The notes under the pieces were generated by a model that was not told where the DNA came from, searched no databases, and saw nothing but the letters and a program-made list of their open reading frames with translations. This document shows, piece by piece, positions 6,009-28,019 of a DNA stretch of 30,752 nucleotides; position 1 is the first letter of the stretch, and each line of letters opens with the position of its first letter. Made by a program: the position numbers and the translations under genes. Source of the DNA: Terrimicrobiaceae bacterium (GTDB lineage Bacteria > Verrucomicrobiota > Verrucomicrobiia > Chthoniobacterales > Terrimicrobiaceae); assembly GCA_035719865.1 (NCBI GenBank), contig DASTFP010000043.1:1-30752 (forward strand). Direction: 5' to 3'.

Positions 6009-6200
6009 CGAGAATCCTCTTCTTTCCGAAAAATTAGGCTGGGAAATCTTCGCCAGGGGGAGCGATCGGGAGTTTCTTGCGACGTGCAAACGCGCGGAGG
6101 CGCGTTCGTGGATCGCCGCAGCGCGTTGACAAATCGCGGTTCGGGAGAAAAGTTTCCCAACTCTGTGAATACCGTTCTTCGGAATGCGACTGAGGGCGGG

Positions 6201-7229
6201 ATGGGAAGCAGTCGCAACTTAACGCGTCGCTTCGCCGCATGGACTTTGGTTCTGGCGATTGGCGCGGCTCTCACGGCGTGCGCCTCGCGTGAGCCGCCCG
6301 TTGCGCGCCGGCTGGGCCCTGCCATGTGCAAGGAAGGACCCCCGGCATGGCGCGCCTCCGATGGTCGCCGAATTATGTATCGAACATGGGGTCCGGCTCA
6401 AAACGGCGCCCGGGCCGTCGTCGTGGGGGTCCCGGGTTGGAATGGTACGGCTGGCGACATCGAGCCGCTGGCCCTCTACCTGGCGAAAAGCGGCATCCGG
6501 GTTTACTCGACCGGCGTCCGCGGACAGCATGGAGATCTCACTGCGGCGTCCCAGCGAATGAAGGGACACGCCGACGACGGGCGATTTTGGGAGCGAGACT
6601 TCACGGAATTTGTCGCATGGGTGCAGCAGCGCCATCCGAATATTCCTCTCTTTCTCTACGGCCAGAGCATGGGCTCCCTCACCGCAATTTTGGTCACGAG
6701 CAACGGAGACCTCCCGGACGGTGCCAGGCCATCCGGAATCATCTTGCACTCCCCGGCTGTCGCGATGATGTACGCTTCGCCCCTGCTACGCCTCTGCATC
6801 GCAGAACTGCGCCGCGTTAAGCCGAGGGGACTCCTTTTAAGCGTGGGTCTGATCCCTGGAGATAAGCCGGCACTCACCAATAGCGCACAGTTCGACCGAT
6901 TCTGGGGACGGTCAGTGGACCGCGTGCGGCCAGGCTTCACATGGTCGTTTTTTGATGAGACGCTGAAATTGGGCGGCCGGGCGCGCAAGGCAGTGTCGCA
7001 ACTGGATGTGCCCGTCATCATCCTAACGGGAGAAAAGGATCCCATCGGAACGGCCGGGGTGGGACAGAGGGCTTTTGCGCGTCTCATGCGGTGGATTCCT
7101 GCTCAAGCCAAGGAACGACACCGCTTCGCAGACGGCTACCACGACCTTATCCACGACAGCAACAGGCAGCAGGCGCTCCAGTGCGTGGGGGATTGGCTGG
7201 ATCGGCAACTTCGAAAACCTGAAGCCTGA
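6201..7229 (+). CDS. Alpha/beta hydrolase (lysophospholipase / Hydrolase_4-like), probable lipoprotein
   Basis: Signal peptide with lipobox LTAC; nucleophile elbow GQSMG; GEKDPI (Asp); GYHDL (His). Confidence 0.88.
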
Positions 7230-7284
7230 TCGAGGGGGCCACTTGCACCGAAAGGGAAATTCGATCACAAAGAAGACCAGCAAG

Positions 7285-8253
7285 ATGAACTACAGAGAAC
7301 TCGGCAAGACAGGATTGAAAGTATCGGAAATCGGTTATGGGGCGTGGGGAATCGGCAAGAGCATGTGGATTGGCGCCTCGGACGACGAATCCCTCAAAGC
7401 CCTCCACAGGTCGATCGATTTGGGACTCAACTTCATCGACACGGCCTTGGGTTACGGGGACGGTCATAGCGAGAAGCTCGTCGGCCAGGTCGTGCGAGAA
7501 CGCTCTGAAACGATCTACGTGGCAACGAAGATCCCCCCGAAAAACGAGGTATGGCCTGCGCAGCCCGGGACGCCGGCAGGAAAAACCTTCCCTTCTGAGC
7601 ATGTGATGTCCTGCACGGAGAAAAGCCTGAAGAATCTCGGCTTGGAAGCGATCGACGTTCAGCAGTTTCACGTGTGGTCCGACGAATGGGTCGATCAGGG
7701 AGACTGGTTGGAAGCCATTCTCAAGCTAAAACACCAGGGCAAAATAAGGCACTTCGGCGTTTCAATAAATGACTACCAGCCGGAAAACGCGATCAAACTG
7801 ATTGAGACCGGCGCAGTAGATACCGTCCAGGTCATCCACAATATTTTCGAGCAGAGCCCGGAAGATAAGTTGTTTCCCGCCTGTGAGACCCACAACGTCG
7901 GCGTCATCGTGCGGGTCGCCCTGGACGAAGGCGGATTGACCGGGAAAATCACGCCGTATACCAAATTTGAGGAAGGTGATTTTCGGGACAGGTATTTTCG
8001 CGGCGAGCGAAAACAAGAGGTGTATGAGCGGGTGCAAAAGATCGCTTTCGACCTGAATATCACTCTGGAGCAGACCGCCGAAACCGCGCTGCGCTATGTG
8101 TTAAGCCATCCGGCTGTCTCCACGGTCATTCCGGGCATGCGTTCAATTCAAAACGTTGAAAGAAACTGCCAAATTGGAGATGGACGCGGGCTGGCCGCCG
8201 AAATGGTTGACAAATTAAAGGCCCATCGTTGGGCTCGTAATTTCTACGAATAA
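7285..8253 (+). CDS. Aldo/keto reductase
   Basis: [61 protein letters not shown]. Confidence 0.95.
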
Positions 8254-15972: not shown

Positions 15973-17631
15973 ATGAAGAAACCAGTGATTCTCACCGTTG
16001 ACGACGACGTGGACGTCCTTCGGGCGGTGGAGCGGGATTTGCGGCGGCAGTACGGAGAGCGTTTTCGCGTGATGCGAGCCGACTCGGGCGCGGCGGCGTT
16101 GGAATTGGTCCAGCAGCTCAAGCTGCGAAATGAGCCGCCTGCGCTGTTTCTGGTCGATCAGCGGATGCCCCGGATGTCGGGCGTCGAGTTCTTGGAGCAG
16201 GCGCTGAAAGATTTCCCGAAGGTTAAACGCGCGCTGCTCACAGCATATGCGGACACTGATGCGGCGATCAGCGCGATCAATTCGGTCCAGATCGACCACT
16301 ATTTGATGAAGCCGTGGGACCCGCCCGAGGAGCGTCTATATCCGGTGCTCGACGACTTGCTCGACGACTGGCTGGCGGGCTTCCATCCGCCGTTTGAGGG
16401 CATCCGCGTCGTCGGTCTCAAGTGGTCGCCGCAGACGCACGCGGTCAAAAATTTCCTGGCGCGAAACCAGATTCCGTATCAGTGGCTCGACGTCGAGATC
16501 GACGCCGAAGCGCGCAAACTCGACGAGCAGGCCGGCAACGGAACAAATCTTCCGCTGGTGCTCTTTCCCGACGGTTCGCGCCTCAGAGATCCTGCCCCAG
16601 AGGTGGTCGCAGAACGGGCGGGCTTGAGAACGAGGGCGCAGATGCCGGCCTACGATCTGGCCATCATCGGCGCCGGACCCGCAGGGCTCGCGGCGGCGGT
16701 CTACGGCGCGTCGGAAGGACTGACAACCGTGATGATCGAACGCGAAGCGCCGGGTGGGCAAGCAGGTTCCAGTTCCCGCATCGAAAACTACCTTGGGTTT
16801 CCCTCGGGGCTCAGCGGAAGCGATCTCACCCGGCGCGCGGTGGCGCAGGCCCGGCGTTTCGGCGCCGAAATCCTGACCCCCAAAACCGTGGCGAGGATTC
16901 GGTGCAACGGACCGTATCGCGTGCTCACCCTGAATGACGGTAGCGAAATTAGCTGCCAGGCGCTGCTCATCGCGACCGGCGTCTCCTATCGGCGCCTCGA
17001 TACACCGGGCATCGAGAGACTTACGGGCGCTGGCGTTTACTACGGTGCGGCTGCGACCGAGGCAATCTCGTGCCAGAATGAAGACGCCTATATTGTCGGA
17101 GCAGGGAACTCCGCGGGCCAGGCGGCCATGTACCTCTCGGGATTCGCCAGGACCGTTACGCTGATCGTCCGGGGAGACTCCCTGGCAAAGACGATGTCCC
17201 AATACCTGATCGATCAGCTTGCCAAAACCCCGAATATCGCCGTGCAGTTTCGCTCGCGCGTGAGCGAGGCACAAGGCAACGGAAAGCTCGATACGGTTAC
17301 TATCGCCAACGATCAGACCGGCGAGGCGAAAACCGTTCCCGCCATCGCGCTTTTCATTTTCATCGGAGCCATGCCACATACCAGCCCAATCGCAGATCTC
17401 ATCGAATGCGATGAACGAGGCTTCATCTTGTCCGGCCCGGATCTGATCGTGAACGGACGCCGCCCGCGCAACTGGCCGCTGCAGCGCGACCCCTATTTGC
17501 TCGAGACAAACGTCCCCGGCATTTTCGTTGCCGGCGACGTGCGCCACGGTTCAATAAAGCGAGTTGCCTCCGCCGTCGGTGAGGGTTCTATTGCTATCGA
17601 ACTTGTGCATCAATACCTGGACCGATTTTGA
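15973..17631 (+). CDS. Receiver (REC) domain - glutaredoxin-like domain - thioredoxin reductase-like FAD oxidoreductase fusion
   Basis: REC residues intact (VDDD, LVDQRMP, LLTAY, MKPW). FAD motif IIGAGPAG, NAD(P)H motif IVGAGNSAGQAA, C-terminal AGDVRHGS.KRVASAVGEG. The CxxC position reads GVYYGAAATE. Confidence 0.93.
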   Translation: MKKPVILTVDDDVDVLRAVERDLRRQYGERFRVMRADSGAAALELVQQLKLRNEPPALFLVDQRMPRMSGVEFLEQALKDFPKVKRALLTAYADTDAAISAINSVQIDHYLMKPWDPPEERLYPVLDDLLDDWLAGFHPPFEGIRVVGLKWSPQTHAVKNFLARNQIPYQWLDVEIDAEARKLDEQAGNGTNLPLVLFPDGSRLRDPAPEVVAERAGLRTRAQMPAYDLAIIGAGPAGLAAAVYGASEGLTTVMIEREAPGGQAGSSSRIENYLGFPSGLSGSDLTRRAVAQARRFGAEILTPKTVARIRCNGPYRVLTLNDGSEISCQALLIATGVSYRRLDTPGIERLTGAGVYYGAAATEAISCQNEDAYIVGAGNSAGQAAMYLSGFARTVTLIVRGDSLAKTMSQYLIDQLAKTPNIAVQFRSRVSEAQGNGKLDTVTIANDQTGEAKTVPAIALFIFIGAMPHTSPIADLIECDERGFILSGPDLIVNGRRPRNWPLQRDPYLLETNVPGIFVAGDVRHGSIKRVASAVGEGSIAIELVHQYLDRF

Positions 17632-20531
17632 GCACGACCGCACAAATGACGGACAGCGGAGCAGTGATGGACCTGCTGCGCCGGGTCCCCCTCTTCGCCA
17701 ACCTCCAGGAGGAAGATAAGGTTTGCATCGAGGAGACGGAAGAACGGCAGCTTGCCCCTGGCGAAATGCTCTTTCGGGAAGGGGAGCAGGCGAAGCAGTT
17801 TTTTGTTCTCCTTGAAGGTGAAATCAGCGTCTCGAAGAAGGACGACGTTGTCGCTCGCAACCGACCCGGTGCGTTTTTCGGCGAGATCCCGCTGTTGCTT
17901 GGCACGCCTTACATGTTGTCCGCGCGCGCCGAGTGCGACTGCCGGCTGATCGTCTTTCCGGAGGAGGCGTTCTGGAAACTGTTGCGGCTCTGTCCGGCGA
18001 TTTCGGCTGAGATTTTCCGCGCGATGGTGACACGTCTTCGCAACATCGAGGGCTCAGCGCGACAGCAGGAAAAGCTGGAGGCTCTCGGCACAATGTCCGC
18101 CGGCCTCGCCCACGAGTTGAACAATCCTTCGGCCGCCGCCCAGCGCATCGCCGTGCATCTTGGAGAAGTGATTCAGACGATCCAGTCGGTCGCCCATCGG
18201 TTGCATCACATGCTTGAGCACGACCACTGGGATCGGCTGATCGCGCTCATGGACGGAGTTTTGGAGGATTTTTCGGCTGGAAAGCACCATCACTCCATTG
18301 AGCAGAGCGATTCGGAGGATGCGCTCTCGGCCTGGCTGCGAGAAGCGGGACTGACCGATGCCTGGAAAATTGCCCCCGTGCTCGTCGGCGCAGGATTGAG
18401 CATGAATGAGCTCATTTCGCTGCGTGGAGATTTGCCAAAGAATGCTTTCGGCGACGCGGTGCGGTGGATCGCTTTGCGAATAACGATCCAAACACTGCTC
18501 GATGACGCTGAGCAATGCACCGGGCGGATTGCCGGTCTGGTGGATGCGGTGCGTTCCAGCGCGAGACAAGAGCGCGCGGAGACCGCGGATATCGACGTGC
18601 ATCAGCAAATCAGGAGCGCCCTGGGCGTTCTCGAGCGCAAGCTCAGGAACCTTCACGTCACGCAGAATTTTTCGAGGGAATGCGGTCAAGTACGAGGCTA
18701 TCCGAGCGAACTCGCGCAAGTGTGGGTCAACCTGCTCGATAACGCCGCGGATGCGGTAAATGGCGGCGGAGAAATCTCTATTCGAACCCGGCGCGACGAC
18801 AATCAGACCGTCGTGGAGATCATCGACAATGGCCCCGGCGTCCCACCGCAAAATCTGACGCACATCTTTGAGCCGTTCTTCACTACGAAGGGTGTCGGTT
18901 CGGGAAAAGGTCTCGGTCTGACGATAAGCCAGGGCATCGTGGGAGACCGCCACGGCGGGGAGATCGAGGTCGAATCGAAAGCAGGTGAAACCCGATTCAT
19001 CGTGCGATTGCCCGTGCGGCCGATTGAAAGAAACGACGGCCCCGAGGCAATCGCCGCAAGTCGGGCGTATATGGCCGAACTGGCGGAGCAACTCGAAGAA
19101 AGAGAATCTCGTCCCCCGCCGGCAACGCCCCCCGTTTCCGATGGAGCCTTCGCGACGGTTTTCGATGTCCCGCTCTTCGCCCAACTCGACGACTCGCAGC
19201 GTGCCTGCTTTTCGACGGGAACGGAGATACGTCTCAAAGCTGGGGAGACTCTCCTGCACGACGGCGATCCGGCGGACGCTTTCTACGTGATGCTGGAAGG
19301 CGAGCTGCGGGCGACAAAAGATTTTGGTGGCCAGGAAATTTTCCTTGGGGAGGTGGTTCCCGGGGAGTTCTTCGGCGAGATCGAGATCTTGCTCGAGATC
19401 CCGAATTGGGTGCTGATTCGGGTGGTCGCCGACAGCCGGCTCTTTCGGCAGCCACGCGCGGGGTTATGGGACCTGCTGCGCAACTCGCCCCAGGTGGCCA
19501 GGGAAATCATGCGAACGCTGGCAACGCGGATGCGGAATTTGGAGGGCTACAGGCAGGAGCGCGAGAAGCTCATCCAACTTGGCGCGATGGCCGCCGGACT
19601 GGCGCACGAACTCAACAATCCCGCGACGGCCGCGCGCCGCGCCGCCGCCGACCTGCGCCAGAGCGTGGAGAAGGTTCAGGACTTCGCCTGCGAGCTTAAT
19701 GAATCCCTCAGCGTCGAGCAATGGCAGCAACTGGTTGCGACCTTCCAGCAGGCTGCCCATTGCGCCGCATCCCAGCCGAAACTGAATCCCCTCGAGCAAA
19801 GTGACCGCGAAGAAGCGACCGAATGCTGGCTCGACTCGCAGAATATCGCGGACGCTTGGGAGCTCGCGCCCGCACTAGTCAACGCCCGCGTGGATCAGGA
19901 AGAGTTGGAAACTTTGCAGCGGACCGTGCCGCCACAAGACCTTGAAAACGCGATCCACTGGCTCGCGGCGAACGTCACCACGCGCGACTTGCTCAAGTCG
20001 ATCACCCACAGCACCGAGCGCATCTCGGAGTTGGTGCGTGCGGTGAAGTCGTATTCGTTCATGGACCAGGCGCCGTGGCAGGAGATCGACGTGCACGAGG
20101 GTATTGAGAACACGCTGATCATCCTCAGCCACAAGCTCAGGAACGTCACGGTCACCCGCGACTTTGATCGCACGCTTCCGCGCCTCTGCGCTTACGGCGG
20201 CGAGCTCAACCAGGTGTGGACGAACCTCATCGACAACGCCATTTACGCCGTCGGTGGAACGGGTCGCATCGATATCCGCACGCGCCGCGACGGCGAGTTC
20301 TTCCTCGTGGAGATCGCCGATAATGGGGGCGGCATCCCGCCTGAGGCACAGCCGCATATCTTCTTTGTGCCGTTCTTCACCACCAAGGGCGGCTCAGGGA
20401 CCGGGCTTGGCTTGGTAATCAGCCACCGGATCATTACCGAACGGCATCACGGAAAGATCGACTACGGCACAGGTCCCAATGGCACACAATTCAACGTGCG
20501 TTTGCCATTCGAGTCGTCCGAGAACCTCTAG
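17628..20531 (+). CDS. Soluble double histidine kinase 1: (cNMP-HisKA-HATPase) x2
   Basis: Two H-boxes ([18 protein letters not shown]), two N/G1/F/G2 box sets, two cNMP-like domains, no TM segment. TTG start overlaps the upstream TGA; alternative ATG starts at 17646 and 17667. Confidence 0.93.
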   Translation: MSTTAQMTDSGAVMDLLRRVPLFANLQEEDKVCIEETEERQLAPGEMLFREGEQAKQFFVLLEGEISVSKKDDVVARNRPGAFFGEIPLLLGTPYMLSARAECDCRLIVFPEEAFWKLLRLCPAISAEIFRAMVTRLRNIEGSARQQEKLEALGTMSAGLAHELNNPSAAAQRIAVHLGEVIQTIQSVAHRLHHMLEHDHWDRLIALMDGVLEDFSAGKHHHSIEQSDSEDALSAWLREAGLTDAWKIAPVLVGAGLSMNELISLRGDLPKNAFGDAVRWIALRITIQTLLDDAEQCTGRIAGLVDAVRSSARQERAETADIDVHQQIRSALGVLERKLRNLHVTQNFSRECGQVRGYPSELAQVWVNLLDNAADAVNGGGEISIRTRRDDNQTVVEIIDNGPGVPPQNLTHIFEPFFTTKGVGSGKGLGLTISQGIVGDRHGGEIEVESKAGETRFIVRLPVRPIERNDGPEAIAASRAYMAELAEQLEERESRPPPATPPVSDGAFATVFDVPLFAQLDDSQRACFSTGTEIRLKAGETLLHDGDPADAFYVMLEGELRATKDFGGQEIFLGEVVPGEFFGEIEILLEIPNWVLIRVVADSRLFRQPRAGLWDLLRNSPQVAREIMRTLATRMRNLEGYRQEREKLIQLGAMAAGLAHELNNPATAARRAAADLRQSVEKVQDFACELNESLSVEQWQQLVATFQQAAHCAASQPKLNPLEQSDREEATECWLDSQNIADAWELAPALVNARVDQEELETLQRTVPPQDLENAIHWLAANVTTRDLLKSITHSTERISELVRAVKSYSFMDQAPWQEIDVHEGIENTLIILSHKLRNVTVTRDFDRTLPRLCAYGGELNQVWTNLIDNAIYAVGGTGRIDIRTRRDGEFFLVEIADNGGGIPPEAQPHIFFVPFFTTKGGSGTGLGLVISHRIITERHHGKIDYGTGPNGTQFNVRLPFESSENL

Positions 20532-20537
20532 GCATTT

Positions 20538-20684
20538 GTGAAGGTGAACGCTTGGAGGACCCGCGGGCCACATCGGCTATGGACCGCCCCGGAGGACCTT
20601 GGCAAGGAAGACAGCCCGTGCGACGGGCTCGATAGTTCGGGGGTGGCCATCAAAATTGTGCGGCAATATTTGGATCCGTTTTGA
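20538..20684 (+). other. Intergenic open frame ending in a relic copy of the reductase 3' end ([12 protein letters not shown])
   Basis: 20649-20684 aligns without gaps to 17596-17631 (IELVHQYLDRF*). The frame is open from the kinase 1 TAG to the TGA that overlaps the kinase 2 TTG; GTG codons at 20538 and 20544. Confidence 0.7.
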
Positions 20685-23650
20685 GCACGATAACACAGAT
20701 CAGGGACTGCGAGGAGCTGATGATCCAGCTCCGCGGGGTTCCCCTCTTTGCAAACGTCGAAGACGAAGAGAGCGTTTGCATCGAGCAGGCGGAAGAATGG
20801 CGACTGCCCGCGGGCGAGGTGTTCGTCGGGGAAAGAGACCCCTTGGAGAAGTTTTTTTTACTCCTCGAAGGCGAAGTCAGCCTCACGAAGAAATATGGCG
20901 ATCAGCAGATCGTCGTCTCGCGCTACAGACCCGGCACATTCTTCGGCGAAGTGCCGCTGCTCCTTGGCGTGCCTTCCATTCTGACCGCGCGCGCGGAGTC
21001 CGACTGCCGGCTGATCGTGTTTCCGGAGGCCGGGTTCTGGCGACTGCTGCGGCTCTGCCCGGCGATTGCGGGTGAAATCTTTCGCACGATGGCGGCGCGG
21101 CTTCGCAATCTCGAAGGCTCCAAACGACAGCAGGAAAAGCTCGCGGCGCTCGGAACGATGTCCGCCGGTCTCGCCCATGAATTGAACAATCCCTCCTCCG
21201 CCGCCCGGCGCATTGCGGTGCTTCTCGGAGAGGTGATTCAGAAAATTCAATCCGTCGCCCATCAGTTGCATCAAACGCTTGGGCCAGACCACTGGGATCG
21301 GTTGATTGCGTTTGCGGATGATGCTTTGGAAGTCTTGTCCGCGAGCCGGCGCGACCACTCGATCGAGCAAAGCGACTCGGAAGACGTGCTCAGCATCTGG
21401 TTGCGAGAAAGTGGCGTGGCTGAAACATGGAAAATCGCTCCGGTGCTCGTGAGCGCGGGATTGGAGAAGAGGACGCTGGCCTCATTGCATGCCGACCTCC
21501 CGCCGAGCGCCTTCGCCGATGCGATCCGATGGATCGCCCTGCGGCTGACGATCCGCACATTGCTCGATGACGCAGAACAATGCACCGGGCGCATCGCGAG
21601 TTTGGTTGATGCCGTGCGTTCCAGCGCGCGGCAGGAGCGCGCAGAAGCCGCGGATATCGACGTTCATGAGCAAGTCAAGAGCGCCCTCTCGGCTCTTGAT
21701 CATAAGCTCCAGAACGTTCATGTGACCCAGCACTTTGCCGCCGACAGCGGTCGCGTGCGCGGGTATCCGAGCGAACTCGCGCAAGTCTGGGTGAATCTGC
21801 TCGACAACGCCGCGGATGCGGTCAACGGCGGTGGCGAGCTTTCCATCCAAACGCGGCGCGAGGACAATCAAACGGTCGTGGAAATCACGGACAACGGCCC
21901 CGGTATTCCACCCGAGAATCTCTCCCACATCTTCGAACCGTTCTTCACGACCAAGGGAGTCGGTTCGGGAAAAGGTCTCGGCCTGACCATCAGCCAGGGG
22001 ATTGTGGGAGACCGGCACGGTGGTGAGATCGAGGTCGAGTCGAAAGTGGGCGAAACGCGATTCATCGTGCGACTGCCAGAGCGGCGCGTCGAGAGAAACG
22101 AATCATCCGAAGCAATCGTCGCGAGTCGCGCCGTCATGGCGGAACTGACAGAAGGTTTCGAAGAAAGCCAGCCTCCGTCGTCTCAGGAGTCCTCGATCCG
22201 ATTGAGGCGTTCGGACATGGGCGGGATGGCTGCTATTGCAGATGGATCCGCAGTTTCGGACAGAGCGTTCGCCACGATTTTTGACATCCCGCTTTTCGCG
22301 CAACTCGACGACTCCCAGCGTGCGTGCTTTTCGACCGGAACGGAGATCCGTCTCACGCCCGGGGAGACGCTCATTCGCGGCGGCGATCCGGCCGACGCTT
22401 TCTACATCATGCTGGAAGGCGAGTTGCGGGTGACAAAATTCTACGGCAACCAGGAGATCTTCCTGGCGGAAGCGATGCCTGGGGACTTTTTTGGCGAGAT
22501 TGATATCCTGCTCGAAGTCCCGCATTCCGCGCTTATTCGGGCCGTCGCCGACAGCCGACTTTTTCGTTTGCCGCACACGGAGTTTTGGGATCTGCTCCGC
22601 TGCTCGTCTTCCGTGGCAATAAAAGTTATGCGCACACTCGCGACGCGAGTTCGCAACGTGGAAAGTTACTCGCAGGAACGCGAAAAGCTCGCGCAACTTG
22701 GTGCGATGGCGGCCGGACTGGCCCATGAACTCAACAATCCGGCGACGGCTGCGCGCCACGCCGCCGCCGACCTGCGCCAGAGCGTGGAGAAGGTTCAGGA
22801 CCACGCCTGCGAGCTTAGTGAAACGCTTAGCGCCGAGCAGTGGCAGCAACTGGTGGCGGCCTTCCAGCAGGCCGCACATTGCGCCGCATCCCAGCCGAAA
22901 CTGAATCCCCTCGAACAAAACGACCGCGAGGAGACGATCGAATGCTGGCTCGATTCGCAGAATATCTCGGACGCCTGGGAACTCGCGCCCGCACTAGTGA
23001 ATGCCCGCATTGATCAGGAAGAGCTGGAAGCCTTGAAGCGGAGCGTGCCGGCGCAAAGTCTTGAGAGCGCGATACATTGGCTCGCCGCAAACGTCACCAC
23101 GCGGGACTTGCTCAAATCGATCACCCATAGCACCGAGCGCATCTCGGAGTTGGTGCGTGCGGTGAAGTCGTATTCGTTCATGGACCAGGCGCCGTGGCAG
23201 GAAATCGACGTGCATGAGGGCATCGAAGACACGCTGATCATCCTTGGCCACAAGCTCAGGAACGTCACCGTAATGCGGGACTTTGATCGCACGCTGCCGC
23301 GCCTCTGCGCCTACGGCGGCGAGCTCAACCAGGTCTGGACGAACCTCATCGACAATGCCATTTACGCCGTCGGCGGAACGGGTCGCATCGATATCCGCAC
23401 ACGCCGTGACGGCGAGTTTTTTCTCGTGGAGATCGCCGACAATGGCGGCGGCATCCCGCCTGAGGCCCAGCCGCATATCTTTGCGGTGCCGTTCTTCACC
23501 ACCAAGGGCCGCTCCGGCACGGGACTCGGCCTGGTGATCAGCCACCGGATCGTTGTCGAACGGCATCACGGAAAAATCAACTTCAGCACGGGTCCGAACG
23601 GCACACAATTTAACGTGCGCCTGCCGTTTGAATCGCCCACCCACGCTTAG
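20681..23650 (+). CDS. Soluble double histidine kinase 2: (cNMP-HisKA-HATPase) x2
   Basis: Same architecture and motifs as kinase 1, with a longer inter-module linker. TTG start; alternative ATG at 20720. Confidence 0.93.
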
Positions 23651-23676
23651 CCCTCTGTCCGGGGGAGGAAGAAAAT

Positions 23677-23751
23677 TTGAAGAATCCGCGAGCCACACCA
23701 GGAAGGGACCTCTCCATCGAACTTGTGCACGAAGGTTTGAATCGACCTTGA
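23677..23751 (+). other. Mini-ORF (MKNPRATPGRDLSIELVHEGLNRP*) ending in a relic copy of the reductase 3' end
   Basis: GGAGG at 23664-23668, 8 nt before TTG 23677. ATCGAACTTGTGCA at 23716 is identical to 17596-17609. TGA 23749-23751 overlaps the kinase 3 TTG. Confidence 0.7.
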
Positions 23752-26663
23752 CTACCATCGCACAAATGACGGACTGCGAGGCGCTGATGGCGCAGCTCCG
23801 CAGGGTCCCCCTGTTCGCCAAACTCAGGGACGAAGATACGGTTTGTTTTGAAGAGGCGGAAGAATGGCGGCTGCCCAAAGGCGAGTCGCTCGTTAACGCA
23901 GGCGAACCGGCGAAGCATTTCTTTGTGCTCCTTGAAGGTGAAGTCAGTGTCTTCAAAAAGCACGGCGATCAGGAGATTGTTGTCGCGCGCTACAGGCCCG
24001 GTGCATTTTTCGGCGAGGTTCCGCTGCTGCTCGGTGTCCCCTACATTTTGACCGGGCGCGCGGAATCCGACTCGCGGCTCATCGTTTTCGGGCAGGAGGG
24101 GTTTTGGCGCCTGCTGCGGCTTTGTCCGGCGATTTCCAGTGAGATTTTTCGCGCAATGGCGGCACGTCTCCGCAACCTTGAAGGCACCAGGCAACAGAAG
24201 GAGAAGCTGGCTGCCCTCGGAACAATGTCCGCGGGTCTTGCGCATGAGTTAAACAATCCTTCCGCCGCGGCCCAACGCATCGCGGTGCTTCTCGGAGAGG
24301 TGATTCAAACGATCCAATCGATCGCCCACCGGCTGCATCACGCGCTTGAGCCGGATCACTGGGATCGCTTGATCACGGTGGCGGACGATGCTTTGGAGAA
24401 GGTTTCCCCCGGCCAACAGAACCACGCGATCGAGCAAAGCGACTCGGAGGACACACTGGGTGCCTGGCTGCGAGAAAGTGGAGTGACCGACGCCTGGAGA
24501 ATCGCTCCCGCGCTGGTCAGCGCGGGACTGGAGGTGCGCACGCTGGTTTCCCTGCGCGAAAACCTCCCATCGAATGCTTTTGGCGACGCTGTGCGATGGA
24601 TCGCTTTGCGCCTGACAATCCGCACATTGCTGGACGACGCGGAGCAGTGCACCGGCCGAATTGCGAGCCTGGTCGACGCCGTGCGTTCCAGCGCGCGACA
24701 GGAGCGCGCGGAGGCGGCAGATATCGACGTGCACGAGCAAATCCGAGGCGCCCTTGGCGTGCTCAACCACAAGCTCAAGAACGCTCGCGTTTCGCAGAAT
24801 TTTTCGGCCGACTGCGGCTACGTGCGCGGCTATCCGAGCGAGCTCGCGCAGGTCTGGGTCAACCTGCTCGATAACGCGGCGGATGCGATAAATGGCAGCG
24901 GTGAAATTTCCGTCCGGACCCGACGCGACGACAACCAGACGGTCGTGGAGATCGTCGATAACGGACCGGGCATCCCAGAAGAGAATTTCTCGCACATTTT
25001 CGAGCCTTTCTTCACTACCAAGAGCGTCGGTTCGGGAAGGGGCCTCGGCCTGACGATCAGCCAGGGCATCGTGGGAGACCGGCACGGCGGAGAAATCGAA
25101 TTCGAATCGAAAGCGGGCAAGACGCGCTTCATCGTGCGACTGCCGGTGCGACGGGTCGAGAGAAACGAGGCGGCCGAGGCAATCGTCGCAGGTCGCACGG
25201 TCATGGCCGAGCTCAGTGAGCGGATCGAGGAGATGGAGGCTCCTCCACCGCCTCAGAGGCCCGCCGTTTCTGACGGAGCGTTGCCAACAGTTCTTGACGT
25301 CCCGCTTTTCGCTCAACTCGACGACGCCCAGCGCCAGTGCCTCTCCACGGGAGTTGAGGTTCGCGTTATGACCGGCGAAACGGTCATTGCCGAGGGTGTT
25401 CGATCGGACTTTTTCCACGTGATGCTGGAAGGCGAGTTGCGCGTGACGAAGTTCTTCGGCGAACAGGAAATTTTCCTGGGAACGCTGGTTCCCGAGGAAT
25501 TCTTCGGCGAGGTTCAGATCCTCCTGGACATCCCGCCTTATGTGCTCATTCGGGCGGTCGCCGACAGCCGGCTTTTTCGCCTGCCGCGCACCGGATTTTG
25601 GGAGCTCCTGCGTTGCTCGCCATCCGTGGCGAGGGAAATCATGCGGACGCTCGCAACCCGATTGAGCAATATGGAGGGCTACACACAGGAGCGTGAAAAG
25701 CTTGTCCAACTCGGCGCGATGGCCGCGGGGCTTGCGCATGAGCTCAACAATCCCGCGACAGCCGCGCATCGGGCCGCCGGCGATCTGCGCCAGAGTGTCG
25801 AGAGGGTTCAGGACTACGCATGCGAGCTCAACCAAACTCTCGGCGCGGAGCAGTGGCAACAGTTGGTTGCAACGTTCAAGGAGGCCGTGCGTCGTGCCGA
25901 GACTCAGCCGAAGCTCAATCCACTGGAGCAAAGCGACCGCGAGGAAGCGATCGAATGCTGGCTCGACTCGCACAGCTTTGCGGACCCGTGGGACCTGGCG
26001 CCCGCGTTGGTCAGCGCCCGCATCGATCAGGACGTTCTCGAAGCGCTCAAGCGGATTGTGCCCGCGCAAGATCTGGAGAACGCAATACATTGGCTCGCGG
26101 CGAACCTCACCACCCTCGATTCGCTCAAATCGATTTCGCACAGCACCGATCGGATCTCGGAATTGGTGCGCGCGGTGAAGTCCTATTCGTTCATGGACCA
26201 GGCGCCATGGCAGGAAATCGACGTGCACGAGGGCCTCGAGAACACGCTGATCATCCTCGGCCACAAACTGAGGAACGTCACCGTAACCCGCAACTTTGAT
26301 CGCACGCTGCCGCGCCTCTGCGCCTACGGCGGCGAGCTCAATCAGGTGTGGACGAATCTCATCGACAACGCCATTTACGCCGTCGGCGGGACGGGTCGCA
26401 TCGACATCCACACCCGCCGCGACAGCGAATTTTTTCGGGTTACGATCGCCGATAATGGCGGAGGCATCCCGCCTGAAGCCCAGCCACATATCTTTGCGGT
26501 GCCCTTCTTCACGACCAAGGGCCGCTCCGGCACAGGACTTGGGCTGGTGATCAGCCACCGGATCGTAGTCGAACGGCATCACGGAAAAATCGACTTCAGC
26601 ACCGGTCCCGCTGGGACACAATTTACCGTGCGCCTGCCTTTTGACGCCCCTGGAGAGCGATAG
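23748..26663 (+). CDS. Soluble double histidine kinase 3: (cNMP-HisKA-HATPase) x2
   Basis: Same architecture. Start set at TTG 23748 by alignment with kinases 1 and 2; the ORF-track start at 23553 overlaps kinase 2. Confidence 0.93.
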   Translation: MTTIAQMTDCEALMAQLRRVPLFAKLRDEDTVCFEEAEEWRLPKGESLVNAGEPAKHFFVLLEGEVSVFKKHGDQEIVVARYRPGAFFGEVPLLLGVPYILTGRAESDSRLIVFGQEGFWRLLRLCPAISSEIFRAMAARLRNLEGTRQQKEKLAALGTMSAGLAHELNNPSAAAQRIAVLLGEVIQTIQSIAHRLHHALEPDHWDRLITVADDALEKVSPGQQNHAIEQSDSEDTLGAWLRESGVTDAWRIAPALVSAGLEVRTLVSLRENLPSNAFGDAVRWIALRLTIRTLLDDAEQCTGRIASLVDAVRSSARQERAEAADIDVHEQIRGALGVLNHKLKNARVSQNFSADCGYVRGYPSELAQVWVNLLDNAADAINGSGEISVRTRRDDNQTVVEIVDNGPGIPEENFSHIFEPFFTTKSVGSGRGLGLTISQGIVGDRHGGEIEFESKAGKTRFIVRLPVRRVERNEAAEAIVAGRTVMAELSERIEEMEAPPPPQRPAVSDGALPTVLDVPLFAQLDDAQRQCLSTGVEVRVMTGETVIAEGVRSDFFHVMLEGELRVTKFFGEQEIFLGTLVPEEFFGEVQILLDIPPYVLIRAVADSRLFRLPRTGFWELLRCSPSVAREIMRTLATRLSNMEGYTQEREKLVQLGAMAAGLAHELNNPATAAHRAAGDLRQSVERVQDYACELNQTLGAEQWQQLVATFKEAVRRAETQPKLNPLEQSDREEAIECWLDSHSFADPWDLAPALVSARIDQDVLEALKRIVPAQDLENAIHWLAANLTTLDSLKSISHSTDRISELVRAVKSYSFMDQAPWQEIDVHEGLENTLIILGHKLRNVTVTRNFDRTLPRLCAYGGELNQVWTNLIDNAIYAVGGTGRIDIHTRRDSEFFRVTIADNGGGIPPEAQPHIFAVPFFTTKGRSGTGLGLVISHRIVVERHHGKIDFSTGPAGTQFTVRLPFDAPGER

Positions 26664-26665
26664 CC

Positions 26666-28019
26666 CTACCGTTTCTTCAGGTCTGCGCCGCCGCTCGTGG
26701 AGAGGTCCGCGGCAATTGCGCCCAAATACGGAGAGGAGGCCCGAACCCGGGCGCGCAACCGGCTCAGCAGGCTGTAAAGACCGAAGAAAACCCTGTTGAT
26801 GTAAATACTGTGGGCCGATCCGCGTCTCCCGCGCAGGGTGCGCAGCATTTGGTTTTTCCGGTTCTCCTCTCCCATCTCATAGATCGCGGCCAGAAGCTCC
26901 GGATCGCCAAAATCAAAAATTTCTTCCCGAAAAGGCCGCGCCAGCAGTTCGAGCGAACGCTGGCAGAGCGTTATCATCTGCTTGCGCTCCGCAGGCCCAT
27001 CGCTCGGCAAGAGGATATCCAGCGCCTCCATTGCCGCTTCCAGCCTCGCGCGATTCTTCAGCAGGTCCGGATCGAGGAAGGCAAACTGTTTGCGATGAAA
27101 ATCCTCGGTAATCGTCTTGGCGCAGCCGAAATCCAGAACCCAAAGCTCGCCGTTTCGGACGAGGAAGTTTCCGGGGTGCGGGTCGGCGTGGAAGGCCCTT
27201 AAGCAGTGGATCTGATGGGCATAGAAATCCCAGAGGCGCCTGGCCAATCTGATCTCGCTCCTGTCCAGTCGCGTCGCCATCCGCGAAGCGATCCAGCGGA
27301 AGGCCTTCGACCCAATCCATCGTGAGGATCCGGTCTGACGAAAGAGCGGCGTAGTAGACCGGGAAACGGACATTCTCCAGATGCGCGGAGGAACGCGAAA
27401 GCTCGATCGAGCGTTGAAGCTCCAGGGCATAGTTGGTCTCTTCGAGAAGCCGCGCTTCGATCTCGTGGAAGTAGTCCTCAACATCCTTTTCGCGCAGGCC
27501 GAGGACCTGCAAGGCGATCGGTTTGATCACGCGGAGATCGCTACGCAGGCTGTCCGCCACGCCGGGATACTGCACCTTCACAGCGAACTCCTGGCCATTC
27601 TTCGCAGCGAGATGAACCTGGCCGATCGAGGCGCCGTGCGCCGCCTGACGGGTAAACGAATCGAACATCGCCCCGGGCTCACAACCGAATTCGCGGCGAA
27701 AAGTCCGGACGACAAGCGGATAGGAAAGCGGCGGCGCGGAATATTGGGCCTGGGCAAATCGACTGGCGTAGGCCGGCGGAAGGAGGTTTCGGTCTATGCT
27801 GAGCATCTGCGCCAGCTTAAGAGGCCCTCCCTTGAGCCGGCTGAAAGTCCGGTAAACCTCATCGGCATTCTCTTCATGAAGGGCCCGCTCGTCGGTCTTT
27901 CCGGACAATGCCCGGCGAGCGTAGAATTTAAGGTAATTCACACCCACCCTGGCGCCACTGCCCACGAGAGCAGCGCCGCGCGAAAGGCGGGTCGTTTCGA
28001 TCGAATGCTGTTCGATCAT
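26666..28019 (-). pseudogene. ABC1/UbiB (AarF) family atypical kinase with one frameshift near 27235 (pseudogene or sequencing error)
   Basis: Frame 1: LKGGPLKLAQ, AQYSAPPL, ASIGQVH, AVKVQYPGV, EETNYALE, ILTMDWVEG. Frame 2: FHADPHPGNFL, VLDFGC. Removing one C from GCG-C-CTC-TGG restores QALWDFY. Confidence 0.85.

What the first reader, a model, noticed from the sequence alone, without database searches (positions are those of the whole stretch)
15973..26663. Candidate new signalling system: one REC-flavoreductase served by three double histidine kinases (six cNMP-like sensor-kinase modules)
Seen: a 10.7-kb co-oriented cluster with a REC-Grx-like-TrxR-like fusion followed by three paralogues of about 970-990 aa. 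Each contains two complete cNMP-HisKA-HATPase units with intact H (LAHELNNP), N, G1 and G2 boxes and no TM helix. No DNA-binding response regulator is in the cluster. Established: REC-TrxB-like fusions paired with one single-unit cNMP kinase occur in several phyla and, to my knowledge, are largely uncharacterised. Inference: internal doubling plus triplication gives a six-input cytoplasmic array whose only visible phospho-acceptor is an enzyme, so several small-molecule or redox cues could be integrated into control of a flavoenzyme rather than of transcription.
Basis: partly seen in the sequence, partly recalled or inferred. Interest (0 to 1): 0.85.

Follow-up and report, generated by a model that had tools for sequence, protein, structure and literature searches.

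The report
Tripled double sensor kinases, one flavoprotein regulator
A soil Verrucomicrobia genome carries a widespread but unstudied signalling pair (a soluble sensor kinase plus a response regulator fused to a cysteine-less thioredoxin-reductase-like flavoprotein) in which the kinase has been fused into a two-in-one protein and then copied three times, a rare elaboration of a known kind rather than a new system.

Summary
R (15973-17631) is REC + Cys-less Grx-like + CxxC-less TrxR-like. K1-K3 are soluble proteins of 967-989 aa. Each has two cNMP-like/HisKA/HATPase modules with intact H, N, G1, F and G2 boxes. Contigs from two independent soil studies span every junction, and a separate 84-kb assembly shows the same array, so it is not a misassembly.

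R plus one single-unit cNMP-like kinase is a widespread pair (at least 588 species genomes, several phyla), listed in censuses as the 'TrxB'-type regulator. No functional study turned up. This scan had already met it in at least 64 other genomes. What is special here is lineage-specific:
- An old fusion-doubling of the kinase (a and b halves 43% identical). Only three clusters at 50% identity among 1.84 billion representatives are doubled.
- Old tandem and dispersed duplications within one Terrimicrobiaceae genus. Every copy carries a relic of R's 3' end.

The paralogues differ most in the sensor barrel and the DHp insert. The DHp helices and catalytic domain are conserved, and dN/dS is below 0.41 throughout. 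This fits several inputs converging on one regulator. Whether each protein is two kinases or one single-chain pseudo-dimer is open. R cannot be a classical thioredoxin reductase.

Verdict: new variant of a known kind, moderate interest.

The parts
15973..17631 (+). R: response regulator fused to a Cys-less Grx-like domain and a CxxC-less TrxR-like flavoprotein (552 aa). REC is about 15973-16347 (D10, D11, D62 at 16156, T90, K113). Grx-like is about 16390-16638 (WSPQ in place of CxxC). TrxR-like is about 16648-17622 (GVYYGAAATEA in place of the CATC site).
   Evidence: (TIGR01292 233 bits, below the 343 cut-off)
17628..20531 (+). K1: double kinase (967 aa from TTG 17628, which overlaps R's TGA as TTGA; 961 aa from ATG 17646). 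Module a is about 17628-19020 (His162, 18111-18113). The low-confidence linker is residues 465-506. Module b is about 19134-20531 (His660, 19605-19607).
20532..20680 (+). K1-K2 spacer. It holds a relic of R's last 36 nt at 20649-20684 ([11 protein letters not shown]) and a GC hairpin at 20613-20629.
   Evidence: The junction is spanned by independent contigs.
20681..23650 (+). K2: double kinase (989 aa from TTG 20681; first ATG at 20720). His166 is at 21176-21178 and His682 at 22724-22726. Module b starts at about 22253.
23651..23747 (+). K2-K3 spacer. It holds a second relic of R's 3' end at 23716-23751 (IELVHEGLNRP*). The spacer is polymorphic in other samples: a 4-nt deletion at 23669 and a 32-nt skip from 23651 to 23684.
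23748..26663 (+). K3: double kinase (971 aa from TTG 23748; 965 aa from ATG 23766). The longer ORF from 23553 overlaps K2 and is not supported by homology. His166 is at 24243-24245 and His664 at 25737-25739. Module b starts at about 25266.

Best explanation
This is an expanded version of the conserved 'TrxB-type response regulator + soluble cNMP-like histidine kinase' two-component pair.

Shown:
- R is followed by three old paralogues of a kinase.
- That kinase is itself an ancient head-to-tail fusion of two complete sensor-kinase modules.
- All six modules are intact and under purifying selection.
- All copies, including dispersed 'orphan' copies in sister species, descend from duplications whose 5' breakpoint lies in R's 3' end.
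- Among the paralogues, the sensor barrel and the helical insert inside the DHp domain diverge fastest. The His-bearing helices and the ATP-binding domain stay conserved.

Inferred:
- Each cNMP-like barrel lacks the cyclic-phosphate Arg-Ser/Thr pair, so its ligand is probably not cAMP or cGMP. It binds some other small-molecule or redox cue.
- The signal passes through the barrel's C-helix, which the model shows as continuous with DHp helix 1.
- The kinases autophosphorylate and converge on Asp62 of the single R, a many-to-one arrangement.
- Phosphorylation changes the activity or the partner binding of a FAD/NAD(P)H flavoprotein. That flavoprotein cannot reduce thioredoxin by dithiol exchange, because both CxxC centres are missing.
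- The output is therefore metabolic or protein-level, not transcriptional.
For: Architecture and intact boxes.

Ancestral state and distribution:
- R + one single-unit kinase lies directly adjacent in 60 of 73 informative loci by the automatic filter, 63 by inspection, across Cyanobacteriota, Chloroflexota, Acidobacteriota, Actinomycetota, Verrucomicrobiota and Gemmatimonadota.
- Two or three separate kinases follow R in L016, L019, L032 and L052.

Origin of the doubling:
- Modules a and b and the single-unit kinases of other Verrucomicrobiota form one clade with 100/98-100 support.

Copy number in the genus:
- One R per genome, with 1-3 tandem double kinases plus orphan copies. The doubled kinase was found in 11 of 11 genomes of the genus and in none of 15 other genera of the family.
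- R 3'-end relics of about 20-175 nt (68-85% identity) lie upstream of all 11 non-first copies examined and of K2 and K3.
- No REC lies next to most orphan copies.

Divergence and selection:
- Identity among paralogues is 68-70% in the cNMP-like domain, 67-77% in the insert, and 85-92% in the DHp helices and CA domain.
- dN/dS is 0.04-0.41.

Other support:
- The same Grx-like/TrxR-like effector also occurs fused directly to a cNMP-like domain, a one-component version.
- The REC phospho-acceptor residues are invariant in 44 of 44 sequences, and the CxxC-less signature is family-wide.
- RNA-library contigs at 95% identity or more cover parts of R, K1, K2 and K3.
Against: - No phosphotransfer has been measured for any member of this family.
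- The genome (78% complete) has 18 REC matches that could be alternative partners.
- The a modules have lost 4 of the 9 family-conserved positions of the DHp helix-2 motif RISxLVxAxKxYS, while the b modules keep all 9. The a modules may therefore not dock R in the same way.
- R's chemistry is unknown. It may be a sensor or scaffold rather than an enzyme.
- The RNA contigs do not bridge gene junctions, and DNA carry-over in the RNA libraries is not excluded.
- No promoter or terminator signal stands out above chance.
Confidence: 0.6

Rival explanations
1. Single-chain pseudo-dimer. Histidine kinases work as dimers through a four-helix DHp bundle. The fused a and b modules would form that bundle within one polypeptide. 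Each ~970-aa protein would then be one asymmetric kinase with two different sensor domains. The array would give three signalling units, not six. This refines the convergence model rather than excluding it.
For: - The a-b order is kept through an old doubling shared with P0246, which is only 48% identical. Its a module groups with Ka and its b module with Kb.
- In P0246 the b module has Glu at the His position but keeps the N-box Asn residues and the G1 and G2 glycines, while its a module keeps the His.
- In this genus the a modules degrade the conserved helix-2 motif and the b modules keep it, and the b modules alone changed the F-box (IFFVPFF / IFAVPFF).
- A second, independent doubling (P0247) suggests that fusion is selectively favoured.
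- The 40-residue low-confidence linker with a central helix could span a dimer.
Against: - All six modules here keep the His and all ATP-binding boxes.
- The AF2 model has pTM 0.54, and no coordinates were available to measure a-b contacts.
- A homodimer of two-module chains (a:a' and b:b') fits the data equally well.
Confidence: 0.3
2. Partner divergence. After duplication some paralogues (K2, K3, the orphan copies, or all the a modules) were rewired to other response regulators. R would then not be the sole acceptor, and the cluster would not be a many-to-one node.
For: - There are 18 REC matches in the 78%-complete genome and 36-45 in sister genomes.
- Orphan copies sit far from R.
- The a modules diverge at conserved DHp helix-2 positions.
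- The duplicates are old, with dS up to 1.8.
Against: - DHp helix 1 around the His is 87% conserved among paralogues. It matches the family-conserved positions as well as the single-unit verrucomicrobial kinases do (12-13 of 16 against 13-14 of 16).
- No REC gene is adjacent to most orphan copies, and no conserved neighbour was found.
- All copies derive from the R-K junction.
Confidence: 0.15
3. Artefact or decay. The three copies would be a collapsed or chimeric assembly of strain variants, or redundant duplicates drifting towards pseudogenes.
For: - The window is a contig of a fragmented MAG (272 contigs, 78% complete).
- Broken and fragmentary copies exist in sister genomes G024 and G030.
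Against: - The same array is present in an independent 84-kb assembly.
- All junctions are spanned by contigs from two different studies.
- The copies are only 77-79% identical, with distinct spacers.
- dN/dS is 0.04-0.41 in every region of every copy.
- K2 has an 84%-identical orthologue in another species.
Confidence: 0.03

Closest known systems
'TrxB'-type response regulator + classic histidine kinase pairs (P2CS/P2RP class; e.g. Streptomyces coelicolor SCO7298/SCO7297; Galperin's 'Mycobacterium-like combination of REC with thioredoxin reductase')
   Same: - REC + TrxR-like fusion with an adjacent soluble kinase.
- R here is 62-70% identical to members from other phyla, with the same CxxC-less signature.
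- The class is catalogued in PMC9739842, PMC5847659 and PMC9953108.
- The only functional datum found is that sco7298 ('trxB3') transcripts rise after polysulfide treatment (PMC9952706).
   Different: - Elsewhere the kinase is one ~470-aa single unit.
- Here it is a fused double unit present three times in tandem, with further orphan copies in sister species.
Low-Mr thioredoxin reductase (TrxB, TIGR01292; PDB 7jyp, 2q7v, 1tde) and AhpF (1hyu, 4o5q)
   Same: - Two-Rossmann FAD/NAD(P)H fold (Foldseek TM 0.75-0.83 on the target, E 1e-29; HMM E 9e-63).
- As in AhpF, a Trx-fold domain precedes the reductase.
   Different: - The redox-active CATC is replaced by AAAT within the signature GVYYGAAxTEA.
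- The Grx-like domain has WSPQ instead of CxxC.
- The score is below the TIGR01292 cut-off (233 against 343 bits).
- An N-terminal REC domain is present.
Many-to-one kinase networks (B. subtilis KinA-E to Spo0F; Vibrio LuxN/LuxQ/CqsS to LuxU). Cited from general knowledge, not tested here.
   Same: Several sensor kinases with different input domains would converge on a single receiver.
   Different: - Here the kinases are close paralogues made by tandem duplication.
- They are soluble and internally doubled.
- The receiver is fused to a flavoprotein rather than feeding a transcription factor.
CRP/FNR-type cNMP-binding domains with non-nucleotide ligands (CooA, CprK and FNR, from general knowledge)
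   Same: - PF00027 beta-barrel followed by a long C-helix used for dimerisation and signal transmission.
- The canonical Arg-Ser/Thr of the phosphate-binding cassette is absent.
   Different: The C-helix runs straight into a DHp His helix instead of a DNA-binding domain.
cNMP-like + Grx-like + TrxR-like one-component fusion (G030:C2, L009:4941-6686; also G108)
   Same: Same effector module (44-48% identical to R residues 139-550, also CxxC-less) and the same type of sensor domain.
   Different: The sensor is fused directly to the effector, with no kinase or receiver step.

Membership tests
Class I (HisKA-type) histidine kinase | Phospho-accepting His in the H-box of DHp helix 1 | tested here: met
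   [10 protein letters not shown] is present in all six modules.
Class I (HisKA-type) histidine kinase | N, G1, F and G2 boxes of the HATPase_c domain | tested here: met
   HATPase_c twice per protein, E 1e-50 to 1e-52. The boxes are aligned. The b modules have a variant F-box (IFFVPFF / IFAVPFF).
Class I (HisKA-type) histidine kinase | Contiguous DHp helical hairpin forming a dimeric four-helix bundle | tested here: inconclusive
   Pfam HisKA matches only the first ~20-40 profile positions. The AF2 model shows a ~70-90-residue four-helix insert between helix 1 and helix 2. The oligomeric state is not testable here.
TrxB-type response regulator (REC + TrxR-like) | REC domain with an intact acidic pocket, phospho-Asp, Thr and Lys | tested here: met
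   D10, D11, D62, T90 and K113 are invariant in 44 of 44 family members.
TrxB-type response regulator (REC + TrxR-like) | C-terminal pyridine-nucleotide-disulphide-oxidoreductase fold of the TrxR type | tested here: met
   Pyr_redox_2 E 2e-38. PDB TrxR hits.
TrxB-type response regulator (REC + TrxR-like) | Adjacent cNMP-like histidine kinase | tested here: met
   60 of 73 informative loci by the automatic filter, 63 by inspection. Here K1 overlaps R's stop codon.
Thioredoxin-disulfide reductase (TIGR01292) | Redox-active CxxC (CATC) in the NADPH domain | tested here: not met
   The position reads AAAT within GVYYGAAATEA. The signature is conserved family-wide. 233 bits against a 343 cut-off.
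Thioredoxin-disulfide reductase (TIGR01292) | FAD and NAD(P)H GxGxxG/A motifs | tested here: met
   GAGPAG and GAGNSAG are present and invariant or nearly so.
Glutaredoxin | Trx/Grx fold with a CxxC or CxxS active site | tested here: not met
   The fold order beta-alpha-beta-alpha-beta-beta-alpha is present in the model. The active-site position reads WSPQ (W151 invariant). The Pfam Glutaredoxin hit is E 0.0025, below the cut-off.
Cyclic-nucleotide receptor (PF00027 with a functional phosphate-binding cassette) | PF00027 beta-barrel | tested here: met
   E 1e-18 to 1e-20 per isolated domain.
Cyclic-nucleotide receptor (PF00027 with a functional phosphate-binding cassette) | Arg and Ser/Thr of the phosphate-binding cassette (CAP R82/S83 equivalents) | tested here: not met
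   The pairs read Y-M, S-I and Y-I in the a modules and N-W, H-S and P-Y in the b modules. The cassette is also non-canonical in the single-unit relatives.
Many-to-one two-component network | Several kinases phosphorylate the same receiver | not testable with these tools
   Indirect evidence only: one R per genome, no other adjacent REC, conserved DHp helices.

The most novel reading that the evidence does not exclude
The ~970-aa proteins are natural single-chain heterodimeric histidine kinases. The a and b modules would fold back on each other to form one asymmetric DHp bundle with two non-identical sensor domains, so that one polypeptide integrates two cues. Division of labour between the halves would already be visible: the b half keeps the canonical helix-2 motif, and in the relative P0246 the b half has lost its His. 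Combined with birth-and-death duplication, this would give the genus a combinatorial sensor array feeding one flavoprotein regulator.
Probability: 0.3. Interest if true: 0.7.

Novelty: new variant of a known kind. Interest (0 to 1): 0.45.

Why it matters
The REC-TrxR-like / cNMP-like-kinase pair is among the more widespread two-component classes with a non-DNA-binding output, and no functional study of it turned up. This genus offers a natural experiment. The output protein stays almost frozen (62-70% identity across phyla). The sensor kinase has been fused, multiplied and diversified.

Comparing six sensor pockets that act on the same chassis could help identify the ligands and hence the physiological role of the whole family.

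If the doubled kinase is a single-chain pseudo-dimer, it would be a ready-made system for studying asymmetry and cis/trans autophosphorylation in histidine kinases without engineering heterodimers.

The work also corrects an annotation. 'Thioredoxin reductase (NADPH)' cannot be right by the classical mechanism.

Tried and rejected
- Misassembly of strain variants: rejected.
- Recent triplication: rejected. dS is 0.3-1.8, and orthologues of the individual copies exist in other species.
- The doubling corresponding to the tandem kinase paralogues of cyanobacteria: rejected. Modules a and b both nest inside a verrucomicrobial clade.
- zf-UBP or Kef partner (a lead from earlier scan notes): a zf-UBP gene does follow the independent double kinase in L094. 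The domain was not found in this genome or in five near-complete genomes of the genus. It is not part of the system here.
- A conserved partner next to orphan copies: none. The neighbours are a methyltransferase, a protease, a DDE transposase, a dehydrogenase and an MFS transporter.
- A single conserved catalytic Cys in R: C367 is present in 39 of 44 and C328 in 36 of 44 sequences. Neither is invariant.
- Measuring a-b DHp contacts in the AF2 model: not possible, because coordinates are not exposed. Foldseek only returned single-module kinase hits.
- Literature searches for REC-TrxB function, cNMP-TrxR fusions and tandem, double or dual bacterial histidine kinases found censuses only. Galperin's 2006 census was not held in the library.
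- The promoter and terminator scan was not above chance.
- My genus tree had five rows trimmed to the b half through a regex slip. I use only its well-supported groupings.
- The first relic search used an out-of-frame query. I repeated it at the DNA level.
Full report
**1. What is there**

The window is one whole contig (C43) of a 2.0-Mb MAG with 272 contigs, 78% complete. Homologue names place it in Terrimicrobiaceae, Verrucomicrobiota.

Four co-oriented genes occupy 15973-26663.

R (552 aa):
- Pfam finds Response_reg and Pyr_redox_2.
- It scores 233 bits on TIGR01292, below the 343-bit cut-off.
- The AF2 model (pLDDT 83.6) shows REC, then a beta-alpha-beta-alpha-beta-beta-alpha Trx/Grx-fold domain, then a TrxR fold.
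- The TrxR part is closest to true low-Mr TrxRs (HMM E 9e-63; Foldseek E 1e-29). AhpF aligns along the whole length.
- The TrxR CATC site reads AAAT inside GVYYGAAATEA, and the Grx active site reads WSPQ.
- Both substitutions, and the REC residues D10, D11, D62, T90 and K113, are conserved across 44 family members from six phyla.
- No Cys is invariant.

K1, K2 and K3:
- Each has 2 x cNMP_binding, 2 x HATPase_c and two partial HisKA matches.
- H, N, G1, F and G2 boxes are intact in all six modules.
- There is no TM segment.
- K3's real start is 23748 or 23766, not 23553.

**2. It is real**

- An independent 83,951-bp assembly, whose K1 is 98% identical, has the same gene order: amylase, a small ORF, R, three double kinases (961, 977 and 965 aa), ABC1, TetR.
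- Contigs from soil metagenomes of two different studies span R-K1 (16894-17741), K1-K2 (20340-21558 and 20340-20897), K2-K3 (23567-23999) and K3-ABC1 (26573-27000).
- At least 17 soil, urban or rhizosphere DNA runs hold 34-73% of the sampled words.
- Contigs from two metatranscriptome libraries, at 95% identity or more, cover pieces of R, K1, K2 and K3. None bridges a junction, and DNA carry-over is not excluded.

**3. History**

The copies are old:
- The three kinases are 77-79% identical to each other. The a and b halves are about 43% identical.
- dS between copies is 0.3-1.8 and dN/dS is 0.04-0.41 in every region. These are old duplicates under purifying selection.
- The last ~500 nt are 85-93% identical in all pairs, which suggests gene conversion.

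The duplication scar:
- Directly upstream of K2 and K3 lie diverged copies of the last 36 nt of R ([22 protein letters not shown], against IELVHQYLDRF*).

Within the genus:
- Every one of 11 genomes searched has the double kinase. None of 15 other genera of the family does.
- Each genome examined has one R, with one to three double kinases directly downstream, plus full-length 'orphan' double kinases elsewhere. There are also fragments and pseudogenes, especially in G030.
- All 11 non-first copies examined carry about 20-175 nt of R's 3' end upstream (68-85% identity). So they all descend from duplications of the R-K junction.
- One orphan is next to a DDE transposase.
- A tree of full-length kinases separates an R-adjacent K1 group, an orphan clade that is its sister, a K2 group (K2 with G024 position 3, 100/100) and K3. 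Some rows were half-length through my trimming slip.

**4. Wider distribution**

- R-like proteins are found in at least 588 species genomes at 61-70% identity across Cyanobacteriota, Chloroflexota, Acidobacteriota, Actinomycetota, Gemmatimonadota and Verrucomicrobiota.
- Within Verrucomicrobiota R is patchy. It was not found in 299 of 300 other genomes sampled.
- In 60 of 73 informative loci by the automatic filter (63 by inspection), one single-unit cNMP-like kinase of about 470 aa lies beside R. It matches the b module best, at 36-54% identity.
- Three cyanobacterial loci have two separate kinases after R, and one (L052) has three. The third kinase in L052 has lost its His.
- An exhaustive search of 1.84 billion representatives at 50% identity found 4,322 hits at E 1e-30 or better. 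Only three are full-length doubled clusters: P0038 (this genome's own), P0246 and P0247.
- Both distant ones sit next to an R gene.

Module trees:
- The a and b modules and the single-unit kinases of other Verrucomicrobiota fall in one clade.
- P0246a groups with Ka and P0246b with Kb, so they share one old doubling.
- P0247's two halves group with each other, which indicates a second, independent doubling.

**5. Mechanistic clues**

Model of K1 (pLDDT 77.9, pTM 0.54). Each module consists of:
- a cNMP-like barrel;
- one continuous ~73-residue helix (123-195 and 621-693) carrying the His;
- a four-helix insert, with no Pfam match;
- DHp helix 2;
- the CA domain.

The modules are joined by a low-confidence 40-residue linker.

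The cNMP pocket lacks the Arg-Ser/Thr pair in every module, and the same holds in single-unit relatives.

Identity among the paralogues by region:
- cNMP-like domain: 68-70%.
- DHp insert: 67-77%.
- DHp helices: 85-92%.
- CA domain: 85-92%.

The two halves are not equivalent:
- The b modules keep the family motif RISxLVxAxKxYS in helix 2 (9 of 9 conserved positions). The a modules keep 5 of 9.
- The b modules alone have an altered F-box.
- In P0246 the b module has Glu at the His position but retains the N-box Asn residues and the G1 and G2 glycines.

The same Grx-like/TrxR-like effector also occurs fused directly to a cNMP-like domain (581 aa, G030:C2). This links that sensor type to that output without a phosphorelay.

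**6. Interpretation**

The best reading is a lineage-specific expansion of a catalogued but functionally unstudied two-component class. Several diversified sensor modules probably converge on one flavoprotein regulator (confidence 0.6).

Open points:
- Whether each protein is two kinases or a single-chain pseudo-dimer (0.3).
- Whether some copies have been rewired to other receivers (0.15).
- What R does. It is not a dithiol-type thioredoxin reductase.

**7. Literature**

- The only functional datum found is induction of sco7298 by polysulfide (PMC9952706).
- No paper describing doubled bacterial histidine kinases was found.

Earlier notes of this scan report the basic pair in at least 64 other genomes, with the same conclusion. 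None reports the doubled kinase.

**8. Verdict**

- Novelty: new variant of a known kind.
- Interest: 0.45.

Noticed in passing
window 26666-28019 (- strand): The ABC1/UbiB-type kinase gene downstream of K3 is split into two overlapping ORFs (368 aa and 272 aa) by a frameshift near 27250. The near-identical independent assembly has an intact 443-aa gene. This is either a pseudogene or a sequencing error.
   Followed up: partly
window about 19900-20531, 23000-23650, 26000-26663: The 3' ~500 nt of K1, K2 and K3 (b-module DHp helix 2 and CA) are 85-93% identical at the DNA level in all pairs, against 66-80% elsewhere. dS is also lower there. Gene conversion is the likely cause.
   Followed up: partly
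window 20613-20629 and 23651-23684: There is a GC-rich hairpin (AGCCCGTGCGACGGGCT) in the K1-K2 spacer. The K2-K3 spacer is polymorphic between soil samples: a 4-nt deletion at 23669 and a 32-nt skip.
   Followed up: no
L094:5789-12069: The independently doubled kinase P0247 lies in an operon-like row: R, a thioredoxin (CSVC, 109 aa), the double kinase, a zf-UBP protein and a DsbA-like protein. Thiol-redox partners therefore sit beside a CxxC-less R.
   Followed up: partly
L009:4941-6686 (G030:C2) and G108:C24:2519-3742: A one-component paralogue: cNMP_binding + Grx-like + CxxC-less TrxR-like (581 aa), 44-48% identical to R residues 139-550.
   Followed up: partly
L052:4569-9068: Filamentous cyanobacterium CCP2 has three separate single-unit kinases after R. 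One of them (6030-7514) has Gln instead of the phospho-accepting His (SGLAQELRQ).
   Followed up: no
G030 (C37:2656-5050, C11, C16, C20, C24): A sister genome holds many fragments and pseudogenes of the double kinase, one with nine in-frame TGA stops. G024 has a broken middle copy in its three-gene array. The family evolves by birth and death.
   Followed up: no
L093:11580-18919: Directly downstream of the P0246 double kinase lies a contractile-injection-system gene set (Pvc16_N, sheath, gp19-like tube, CIS_tube). It is probably unrelated.
   Followed up: no
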